Part shown: positions 46,452-49,325 of the stretch, one piece after another | How positions within the stretch are numbered: the stretch's first letter is position 1 | Layout: the number at the start of each line of letters is the position of its first letter | From: the human T2T-CHM13v2.0 reference genome, Homo sapiens | DNA length: 64,000 nucleotides | Reading direction: 5' to 3' (one strand) | Assembly (NCBI RefSeq): GCF_009914755.1 | Contig: NC_060932.1 | The notes under the pieces: generated by a model | The model's database searches: none | The model's input: only the letters and a program-made list of their open reading frames with translations | What the model was told of the DNA's origin: nothing | Position numbers and translations under genes: made by a program

Positions 46452-47567
46452 ACATTGGTGTAAAGCTTCATGACTTGGATTAGACAATGGCTTCTTAAAT
46501 ATGGCACCAAAAGCACAAGCAACCAAGGAAAAAGATAGATAAACTGGAGTCATAATAATTAAAATTAAAATGTACGTGCTTCAAAGGACACCACCGGCCA
46601 GGTGAGGTGGCTCACGCTGTAATCCCAGCACTGTGGAGGCTGAGGCCAGGAGTTTGAGACCAGCCTGGCCAATATGGCGAAGCCCCATCTCTACTAAAAA
46701 TACAAAAATTAGCCAGGTGTGGTGGCAGACGCCTGTAGTCCCAGCTACTCGGGAGCCTGAGGTACAAGAGTCACTTGAACCTGCTCCAGCCTGGGTGACA
46801 GAGCAAAACTCCATCTCAAAAAAAAAAAAAAAAAAGACACCAGCAAGCAAATAAAAAGGCAGACCACAGAAACAGAAAATGTTTGCAAATCATATTTCTG
46901 ATAAAGGACTGGCATCTAGAATATATAAAGAACACTTACAACTCAAAAATACCAAAAGGTAAATTCTAAAATGGACAAAGGATTGAAATACACATTTCTC
47001 AAAAGATATAAAAAATGGCCAACAATCACACCAAAGTGTTCAACGTCATTAGCCATCAGGAAATGCAAATCAAACCACAATGAGATTCCACTCGACACCC
47101 ACTAGGATTGGATGTCTGCAATCAAAGAGTCAGATAATAACAAGTGTTGGTGAGGATGTGAGGAAATTGGAAACCTCGCACCCGGCTGTTACTGGGCATG
47201 CAGAATGGCACGCCCGCTTTAGGAAGCAATCTGGCAGTTCTTCAAAATGGTTAAATATAGAATTACCACACAGCTGAGCAATTCCACTCCTAGGTATCTA
47301 CCCAGCAGAAATAAAAAACATACGACCACACAAAAACGTGTATGCAAACGTCCATAGCAGCCTCACTCATAACAGCCAAAAGGTGGAAACAACCCACTAT
47401 CCGTCAACTGATAAACGCATAAGCAAAAGTGGGCACTTCCACACCACGGAACCGACTCCAGCGGGGGGAGGGTGAGGTGCTGATGGCGCGGCGATGTGAG
47501 CAGCCCTGACAGCGTCCCGGCAAGTCGAAGAGGCCAGACCCAGGGCCAGTACAGGCCAATCCATAAC
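46452..47567 (+). mobile_element. L1M (L1MB-like) ORF2 3' end / 3' UTR, interrupted by an Alu at 46596-46836
   Basis: caccaaaagcacaagc, gaaatgcaaatcaaaccacaatgaga, gcaattccactcctaggtat and aaaggtggaaacaaccc motifs. Confidence 0.85.
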
Positions 47568-47569
47568 CA

Positions 47570-47919
47570 TTCCTGTCTGCCTGAGCCCCTCAGCCCCCCC
47601 ATTCTCCCTGTCCCCCATCCAGGGCAGATTCCTCTGGGGCTGAGGCTACTGCAGCCTGTGGCAGGAGAGCTCTGGGCACCCTATGGGAGAGGCCTCCGTG
47701 CTGAGGGCTGTGGGCTGGTGACTTAGACAGTCGGCCCAGCTGCCAAGAGGTGTCCAGTCGCCCAGCCCCCCAAGCCTGGCCTGTGACAGCTCATAGAGGC
47801 TGGGCCGTCCTGCCACACCATGGGAGCCTGGAGAGAGACCTGGGGTGGGTGTGGCAGGGCGGGGACAGTTCTAGGAGAGAGTTGTGGCAATGCAGGTGAG
47901 TGGAGGTGAGGCGGTCAGT
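47570..47919 (+). repeat. Left arm of a 350-bp inverted repeat
   Basis: Reverse complement of 48976-49325; 6 mismatches and no indels by manual alignment. Confidence 0.97.
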
Positions 47920-48811
47920 GAAGAAAGAAAGAGCGGCCCAGCAGCAGTCCAGCGTTGTGGGCAGGGGCCTGTCCTGGGGGTCAGGGCATGAGTGCAGGCC
48001 GGGGAGTGGGGAGTGGGGCCAGCCGGGGGCCTGGGCAGCTGGGGATAGAGACTTTAGGTTGTCATGTTAGGGATGGGAGTGGGGCTTAGGGGTGCTGTGA
48101 GGTGGTCCTGGAGAGGGCAGCAGGGGTGAGAATGAGGCCGGGGTGAGTACCGTTGGTGAGTGGGTGGCGTTGGTGTGGGGCAGGGGCCAGGGGTGGGAGG
48201 CCTGCATTGGTCTGGGGGAAAAGCGGGCCTGGAGAGGGGCTGGGTGTGTTGGGTCTCCACAGGGCGTGTGCCCAGCCTGTGGCCTGCACTCTCTTCAGGA
48301 CCCCTTGCCAGCCCTGGGCCTGCCCAGTGCCACTGTGCCTGGCCCCCTCCTCATGTGTCCCCTACTCTCCCCTGTCCTGGACTCTGAGCTTGGTTATCTG
48401 TGTCCCTGGCACTGGCCCCAGGCCCTCAGCCAGCACTGCAGGGTGTTTGCACGGGTGAGTGGGTGATGGCGTAGGGCGTCATCTGCAGTGGTTGGTGCTC
48501 AGCTGGCAGAGGGCAGGCTGGAGGTTATTTGGGGCTCACTGGAGAGGAATTTTGGTCGGTGTTTACTGTCAAAAGTAAAACGCTCCAAAAAAAAAAAAAA
48601 TCAAGCAGGGTGGAAGTATACAAAGAAAAACGGGGAGAGTCACACCTCTGGGTTCAGGCTCCCGGCTGGGGCGATCGCTGTGCATGAGAGAGGGCGGGAG
48701 AGAGCACACGGATTTGGCCGCCCCTTTACAGGGAGCTCAGACTGAGATTTCCTCTGGAGCCACTGGCTTTTCATGTCAGTACCAATTAGGTTGACCTCAT
48801 GCTGATTATTA

Positions 48812-48975
48812 GTATTTTTTAATAGCTTTATTGAGAGGTAATTCACATGCCACACCATTCACCCATTCAAAGCGTCCAATTCAGTGGTTTCAGTAGATTC
48901 GGAGTTGTGTAGCTGTCAATTCCAGGATATTTTCTCACCCAGCCCCTGGCAACACCGCTCTCTTTTCAGTTATGG
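48812..48975 (-). mobile_element. L1 3' terminus (L1MB-like), inverted relative to the L1 body at 46452-47567
   Basis: Minus strand reads ...gttgccaggggctggg...aaccactgaattg...gtgaattacctctcaataaagc. Confidence 0.8.
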
Positions 48976-49325
48976 ACTGGCCGCCTCACCTCCACTCACC
49001 TGCATTGCCACAACTCTCTCCTAGAACTGTCCCCGCCCTGCCACACCCACCCCAGGTCTCTCTCCAGGCTCCCATGGTGCGGCAGAACGGCCCAGCCTCT
49101 ATGAGCTGTCACAGGCCAGGCTTGGGGCGCTGGGCGACTGGACACCTCTTGGCAGCTGGGCCGACTGTCTAAGTCACCAGCCCACAGCCCTCAGCACGGA
49201 GGCCTCTCCCACAGGGTGCCCAGAGCTCTCCCGCCACAGGCTGCAGTAGCCTCAGCCCCAGAGGAATCTGCCCTGGATGGGGGACAGGGAGAATGGGGGG
49301 GCTGAGGGGCTCAGGCAGACAGGAA
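48976..49325 (-). repeat. Right arm of the 350-bp inverted repeat
   Basis: Reverse complement of 47570-47919. Confidence 0.97.

What the first reader, a model, noticed from the sequence alone, without database searches (positions are those of the whole stretch)
47340..48976. A split L1 indicates the spacer was inverted with staggered breakpoints
Seen: the plus-strand L1 3' UTR stops at ...ggccaatccataac (~47567). What looks like its continuation (tgaaaagag...gttgccaggggctggg...aataaagc) lies on the minus strand at 48812-48975, and the 8-mer tccataac occurs at both breakpoints. Inference: ancestral A-S'-R-B became A-R'-S-R-B, an inversion of ~1.4 kb with an 8-bp duplication at one end and a 350-bp duplication at the other (staggered-break or template-switch mechanism). 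The ~2% arm divergence suggests a recent event or ongoing gene conversion.
Basis: partly seen in the sequence, partly recalled or inferred. Interest (0 to 1): 0.7.

Follow-up and report, generated by a model that had tools for sequence, protein, structure and literature searches.

The report
Small inversion inside a plectin intron
In an intron of the human plectin gene, an old mobile-element remnant is cut in two and its end sits flipped 1.4 kb away between two 98%-identical 350-base mirror copies, most likely the scar of one DNA-copying slip in the ape lineage: a clear but ordinary example of a known kind of small rearrangement.

Summary
A 350-nt inverted repeat (47570-47919 / 48976-49325, 6 mismatches, only these two copies found in the genome search) flanks a 1056-nt spacer. 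An old L1 3' end is split exactly there: aligned to a profile of 19 other copies, 47567 (+) falls on model position 402 and 48968 (-) on 403. The 8-mer TCCATAAC at both breakpoints carries a 3-nt deletion relative to the profile, so it was duplicated in place. Replaying 'A-S'-R-B becomes A-R'-S-R-B' reproduces the locus apart from 6 arm substitutions and a 2-nt filler. [quoted passage not shown] Two rivals give the same sequence and cannot be separated without ape genomes: an inverted duplication followed by a flip between the arms, and staggered breaks. Arm divergence (1.7%, CI 0.6-3.7%) suggests a hominid-age event; there is no sign of gene conversion. One addition: about 130 nt of L1 abutting the left breakpoint are strongly AT-to-GC shifted, a possible old recombination hotspot. 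I found no record of the locus in the inversion lists I could search. Ordinary; low interest.

The parts
46850..47567 (+). Old L1 3' region, upstream piece (A); about 72% identical to other genomic copies; further Alu-interrupted L1-like pieces lie upstream to about 45750
   Evidence: the family label L1 (L1MB-like) is recalled, no repeat library was available
47401..47567 (+). AT-to-GC shifted patch in the L1, peak 47433-47560, abutting the left breakpoint
   Evidence: 25 of 70 A/T sites changed to G/C against 14 of 95 upstream (P=0.003), reverse change 1 of 32; 50 vs 2 with a looser alignment
47560..47567 (+). Left copy of the duplicated 8-mer TCCATAAC (switch point 1 at 47567)
47568..47569 (+). 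2-nt filler at the left junction, next to a 3-nt microhomology
47570..47919 (+). Left arm (R'), the copy that interrupts the L1; 65% GC, unique sequence
47920..48975 (.). Spacer S, 1056 nt, inverted relative to the L1 on its left
   Evidence: 47920-48810 has no match elsewhere in the genome searches
48812..48968 (-). L1 3' end, downstream piece, with AATAAA at 48832-48827
48969..48976 (-). Right copy of the 8-mer; its first base is also the arm's last base; 5-of-7 imperfect microhomology between the two donor sequences
48976..49325 (-). Right arm (R), inferred to be at the ancestral position
51691..51760 (-). Context: plectin alternative first coding exon (MAGPLPDEQDF...; label 1f recalled), about 2.4 kb upstream of the repeat in transcript direction
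53465..53657 (-). Context: plectin alternative first coding exon (MSGEDAEVR...; label 1c recalled)

Best explanation
The locus is a 1.4-kb inversion with a duplication at each end, which splits an old L1 3' end, and it most likely arose in one replication or repair template switch in a hominid ancestor. Shown: the arms, the 8-mer at both ends, the base-to-base continuity of the two L1 pieces, and that switch order 3-1-4-2 replays the sequence. Inferred: synthesis ran through the L1 to 47567, jumped about 1.4 kb ahead onto the opposite strand at a 3-nt microhomology (leaving 2 filler bases), copied R and S backwards and 8 nt into sequence already copied, then re-primed at the start of R through a 5-of-7 imperfect match and went on. 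The net gain is 359 nt. The arms began identical and have since drifted 1.7%. The product is likely neutral intronic DNA, although it is predicted to fold as a long hairpin in plectin pre-mRNA from the upstream promoters.
For: Contiguity: model positions 402/403 at the highest posterior class; 0 columns between the pieces; a junction-spanning probe aligns across both sides in 32 of 58 other L1 loci, against 5 of 58 and 13 of 58 for the junctions as they stand; 30 of 58 loci hold both pieces, all 30 on one strand in the same order. Both 8-mers lack the same 3 nt relative to the profile. Replay of 3-1-4-2 gives the 2301-nt test region with only 6 substitutions, the 2-nt filler and one doubly counted microhomology base. 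Both junctions carry short homology (P about 0.02 and 0.06). The class is published: 1% of 794 events in PMC5453318, 3% in PMC7954356 S1 Table. One event is more parsimonious than two.
Against: The two-step route yields an identical string, and its first step is far commoner: 4-1-3-2 is 11% of events, inverted duplications are 54% of 229 characterised inversion sites (PMC4617611) and number 277 with median 284 bp (PMC12350158). The published 3-1-4-2 events were sought at tens to hundreds of nt; this one is 1407 nt. Junction homology does not separate the routes and is only weakly above chance. The subfamily link between the L1 pieces was not shown (rho -0.12, P=0.64). No ancient repeat spans the S/R or R/B boundary, so those ancestral joins are unverified. 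No outgroup was seen.
Confidence: 0.55

Rival explanations
1. Two steps: a reversed copy of nearby R was inserted into the L1 with an 8-nt direct repeat (inverted duplication, type 4-1-3-2); later, recombination between the two arms flipped the spacer, which may still toggle.
For: Gives exactly the same sequence. Inverted duplications under 1 kb inserted within 5 kb are the commonest inversion-type variant; 350 nt and 1.06 kb fit. Inversions between inverted repeats recur (11 of 16 in PMC3961182).
Against: Needs a second fixed event. Recurrence rises with repeat length and mostly involves repeats of 10 kb or more (bioRxiv 2021.12.20.472354). No flip polymorphism among the 10 chr8 rows of the T2T inversion table. 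No homogenised tract in the arms.
Confidence: 0.27
2. Staggered breaks: two pairs of offset nicks or breaks (8 and 350 nt apart), fill-in and end joining invert the segment and duplicate both overhangs.
For: Same topology as the isochromatid and chromatid models of PMC1885836. The 2-nt filler and short homologies fit end joining. The GC-shifted patch hints at a break-prone site.
Against: Needs four coordinated breaks within 1.4 kb and a 350-nt overhang or two chromatids; the paper itself notes the unwinding difficulty. It was proposed for large Drosophila inversions.
Confidence: 0.14
3. Not a rearrangement of flanking DNA: L1 twin priming, two independent L1 insertions, or an assembly fold-back artefact.
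For: Twin priming explains about 85% of inversions under 2 kb; old L1 3' ends are abundant (513 and 7474 first-look candidates).
Against: Twin priming inverts the 5' part inside the element; here the 3' end is displaced by 1.24 kb of unique DNA. Independent insertions would not abut at consecutive profile positions or share the 3-nt deletion. A fold-back artefact would give identical arms, not 6 differences of which 3 touch CpG.
Confidence: 0.04

Closest known systems
Four-point template switch, type 3-1-4-2 (Loytynoja and Goldman 2017, PMC5453318; Walker et al. 2021, PMC7954356)
   Same: Switch order 3<1<4<2 on the inferred ancestor; two inverted repeats with an inverted spacer; reverse-copied fragment overlaps both 1 and 4.
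   Different: The copied fragment is 1407 nt, beyond the tens to hundreds of nt those scans model; direction was set here by a split L1, not by an outgroup.
Inverted duplications of the 1000 Genomes call sets (Sudmant 2015, PMC4617611; Schloissnig 2025, PMC12350158)
   Same: A 350-nt unique stretch copied in reverse about 1 kb away, with microhomology at the junctions.
   Different: Here the intervening 1056 nt is also inverted, and the short duplication is in inverted, not direct, orientation.
Staggered-break inversions (Ranz et al. 2007, PMC1885836)
   Same: Inverted duplications of non-repetitive sequence at both breakpoints that polarise the event.
   Different: Chromosome-scale Drosophila inversions with gene-sized duplications; here 1.4 kb with 8 and 350 nt.
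Inversions by recombination between pre-existing inverted repeats (Aguado 2014, PMC3961182; Porubsky, bioRxiv 2021.12.20.472354)
   Same: A spacer flanked by near-identical inverted arms that could in principle toggle.
   Different: The arms were created at this site (one interrupts the L1) and are 350 nt; the inversions studied there are 5.1-226 kb.

Membership tests
Template switch type 3-1-4-2 | Derived sequence = L-to-1, reverse complement of 2-to-3, 4-to-R with order 3<1<4<2 | tested here: met
   points at 260, 268, 1317, 1667 on the inferred ancestor; 9 differences in 2301 nt, all accounted for
Template switch type 3-1-4-2 | Two inverted repeats flanking an inverted spacer | tested here: met
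   350-nt and 8-nt inverted pairs; spacer inverted relative to the L1
Template switch type 3-1-4-2 | Ancestral allele observed in an outgroup or another haplotype | not testable with these tools
   the genome has no relatives held
Template switch type 3-1-4-2 | Single event, no intermediate | not testable with these tools
   one-step and two-step products are identical
Microhomology-mediated replication error (FoSTeS/MMBIR-like) | Microhomology or short filler at the new junctions | tested here: inconclusive
   3 nt plus 2-nt filler (P about 0.06) and 5 of 7 (P about 0.02); registers chosen after viewing
Simple inverted duplication (4-1-3-2) | Spacer collinear with the flanks; short duplication as a direct repeat | tested here: not met
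   8-mers are on opposite strands and the L1 end is on the minus strand; possible only as an earlier state
L1 twin-priming inversion | Inverted segment is the 5' part of the L1, adjacent to the rest | tested here: not met
   the inverted piece is the 3' end with AATAAA, separated by unique DNA; definition
Single L1 insertion, later split | Pieces contiguous on the family profile | tested here: met
   positions 402/403; 32 of 58 loci spanned
Single L1 insertion, later split | Both pieces of one named subfamily | tested here: inconclusive
   identity to majority 0.82 (first 200 nt of A) and 0.77 (B) against 0.83 for other copies; rank correlation -0.12, P=0.64; no Dfam/RepeatMasker library
Recurrent, repeat-mediated polymorphic inversion | Both orientations segregate in humans or apes | tested here: inconclusive
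   absent from 10 chr8 rows of PMC10150506 Table S1; string searches of five other supplements negative, but those files may not hold the call sets
Palindrome-type ongoing gene conversion | Homogenised tracts, or arms more alike within than between species | tested here: inconclusive
   longest identical run 99 nt, P=0.80; low power; no second species

The most novel reading that the evidence does not exclude
The rearrangement was triggered at an old recombination hotspot, recorded by the AT-to-GC shifted patch that ends at the breakpoint, and gave hominids a 350-bp non-Alu RNA stem in the first intron of the upstream plectin isoforms, which is edited or shifts first-exon use and lets the spacer toggle between people.
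Probability: 0.05. Interest if true: 0.5.

Novelty: new member of a known kind. Interest (0 to 1): 0.17.

Why it matters
Little by itself: an intronic small rearrangement of a described class. It is a clean teaching case in which a split repeat polarises an inversion without an outgroup, and a kilobase-scale instance of a class catalogued at 1-3% among short events. With ape and pangenome assemblies it would be a one-locus test of whether such 'inversion with flanking duplications' arise in one step or by duplication then flip. A functional effect on plectin isoforms would raise its value, but nothing here shows one.

Tried and rejected
Chance or artefact: rejected. Twin priming and two independent L1s: rejected. 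The other copies were typically about 100 nt longer between the two pieces, which first looked like loss at the breakpoint; it comes from two internal deletions (about 36 and 50 nt) roughly 30 nt either side of the junction. A second orientation marker was sought (an older repeat across S/R or R/B, or an older L1 tail in the spacer, suspected from recalled consensus): nothing found. Gene conversion tract: not seen. Selection for RNA pairing: 4 of 5 transitions read as G-U on the plectin strand, P=0.19, not significant. Rfam: 0 matches in 45000-52500. A recalled PRDM9 13-mer pattern has no match between 38676 and 49605. (first leave-one-out GC test) was off register through a parsing fault; its rates are discarded and replaced, which gives a smaller effect. 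A larger genomic background for inverted repeats was not obtained, so the control is 192.5 kb of L1-rich loci plus the window. Earlier scan findings were not available to compare.

Full report
OBSERVATION. The window holds a 350-nt inverted repeat at 47570-47919 and 48976-49325, 98% complementary, 1056 nt apart. It is the longest inverted pair in the window and the only one of at least 100 nt and 93% there; none occurs in 58 control loci (192,500 nt). The arm matches only these two places in the genome search. There are six mismatches. TCCATAAC occurs once per strand in 64 kb, at 47560 (+) and 48969-48976 (-); the match extends to 13 of 14 nt (about 4e-7 at one register). The repeat lies in a plectin intron, about 2.4 kb downstream of an alternative first coding exon at 51760-51691 and of another at 53657-53465 (labels 1f and 1c recalled).

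THE SPLIT L1. I searched the genome with each piece separately and kept 29 other loci from each search. Of these 58, 30 hold both pieces, all on one strand in the same order. I built a profile from 19 of the 30; I left out 9 with gaps 359-1083 nt longer, and L037 and L059. On it, 47214-47539 (+) takes positions 7-335 and 48940-48812 (-) takes 485-626. With the pieces placed end to end the alignment runs through the junction: 47567 is position 402 and 48968 is 403, and no column separates them in an independent alignment. On all 58 unselected loci a 46-nt junction probe aligned across both sides in 32, against 5 and 13 for the two junctions as they stand. The roughly 100-nt shortfall against other copies comes from two deletions about 30 nt either side of the junction. 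Both 8-mers lack profile positions 397-399, so the duplication postdates this copy's own decay. Against: the subfamily test was uninformative (rho -0.12, P=0.64), the family name is recalled, and no second marker confirms the ancestral S/R and R/B joins.

MECHANISM. Copying the inferred ancestor in switch order 3-1-4-2 reproduces the 2301-nt test region except for six arm substitutions, a 2-nt filler at 47568-47569 and one base counted twice because it is shared microhomology; net gain 359 nt. The left junction has a 3-nt match plus the filler; the right has a 5-of-7 match between the two donors, and the junction itself is a blend of them. These are weak signals (P about 0.06 and 0.02, registers chosen after viewing). 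The same script shows that an inverted insertion with an 8-nt direct repeat, followed by a flip between the arms, gives the identical string. Staggered breaks give the same layout. I put one-step template switching at 0.55, two steps at 0.27, staggered breaks at 0.14 and non-rearrangement readings at 0.04. The net change itself is about 95% secure.

AGE. Arm divergence is 1.7% (95% CI 0.6-3.7%), or 3-19 My at an assumed 1e-9 per site per year. Non-CpG sites differ at 0.6-0.9% and CpG positions at 11-17%, close to human-chimpanzee values as I recall them. Mismatches are evenly spread (longest identical run 99 nt, P=0.80), so conversion is not indicated, though power is low. No primate sequence was available.

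The last 154 nt of L1 before the left breakpoint are 62% GC against 32% in other copies. With confident columns only, 25 of 70 A/T sites became G/C against 14 of 95 upstream (P=0.003) and 12 of 83 in the downstream piece; the reverse change is 1 of 32. The best 100-site window reaches 0.40, against a maximum of 0.24 in 19 leave-one-out copies. A looser alignment gave 50 versus 2; one search was faulty and is discarded. The window was chosen after viewing. Because the arms differ by only 1.7%, most of these changes likely predate the event. The pattern resembles GC-biased gene conversion at an old hotspot (own knowledge); a GC-rich regulatory element is the alternative. The link to the breakpoint is one coincidence, not a demonstration.

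FUNCTION. The arms are predicted to pair in plectin-strand RNA (348 of 350 pairs in the minimum-energy fold), as any such repeat would. No Rfam match. I have no evidence of editing or of an effect on splicing.

WHAT IS KNOWN. [quoted passage not shown] Inverted duplications are 54% of 229 characterised inversion sites in PMC4617611 (passages) and 277 events of median 284 bp in PMC12350158 (passages). Staggered-break models: PMC1885836 (passages). Recurrence between repeats: PMC3961182 (passages) and bioRxiv 2021.12.20.472354 (passages; supplements not seen, and they may list this site).

IS THE LOCUS IN PRINT? Not found. The T2T inversion table of PMC10150506 has 10 chr8 rows, none near 145.13 Mb. 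Coordinate-string searches of the supplements of PMC12350158, PMC13721702, PMC6044046, PMC12350169 (one file unreadable, one cut) and PMC6467913 gave no relevant row; these files may not contain the call sets, and the GRCh38/hg19 positions were estimated from recall. Full-text searches (listings only) showed nothing on this site. The PLEC mention in bioRxiv 2020.12.16.423102 is a 76-bp tandem-repeat expansion (passage); that in PMC8172381 is 'pleckstrin' (passage).

VERDICT. Real and well read by the first stage; a new member of a known class of small rearrangement, with no shown function. Interest 0.17.

Noticed in passing
window 47401-47567: L1 sequence shifted from about 32% to 62% GC, with 8 CpG in 47450-47549, ending at the left breakpoint; resembles a GC-biased conversion peak or a hypomethylated regulatory patch.
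   Followed up: partly
window 51483-51492: Perfect CC(A/T)6GG box (CArG-type, label recalled) about 200 nt inside the intron after the first exon at 51760-51691; two more at 42576 and 62099.
   Followed up: no
window 44911-45071: 80-nt tandem duplication, 2 copies, 87% alike. Whether it relates to the 76-bp PLEC intron expansion mentioned was not determined.
   Followed up: no
window about 59570-60710: A motif recurring at multiples of about 40 nt inside a PARP10 intron, suggesting a VNTR rich in a PRDM9-like pattern.
   Followed up: no
window 47570-47919 / 48976-49325: At 4 of the 5 interior differences the right arm (read inverted) has G where the left has A or C, and all three CpG differences keep the CpG in the right arm; 4 of 5 transitions read as G-U pairs on the plectin strand (P=0.19).
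   Followed up: partly
window 45170-45370 and 48560-48700: AT-rich stretches that by eye resemble an older L1 body and tail (recalled resemblance); no other copy found.
   Followed up: yes
window 45370-46835: At least four same-strand Alu copies or fragments interrupt the L1 region upstream of the breakpoint.
   Followed up: no
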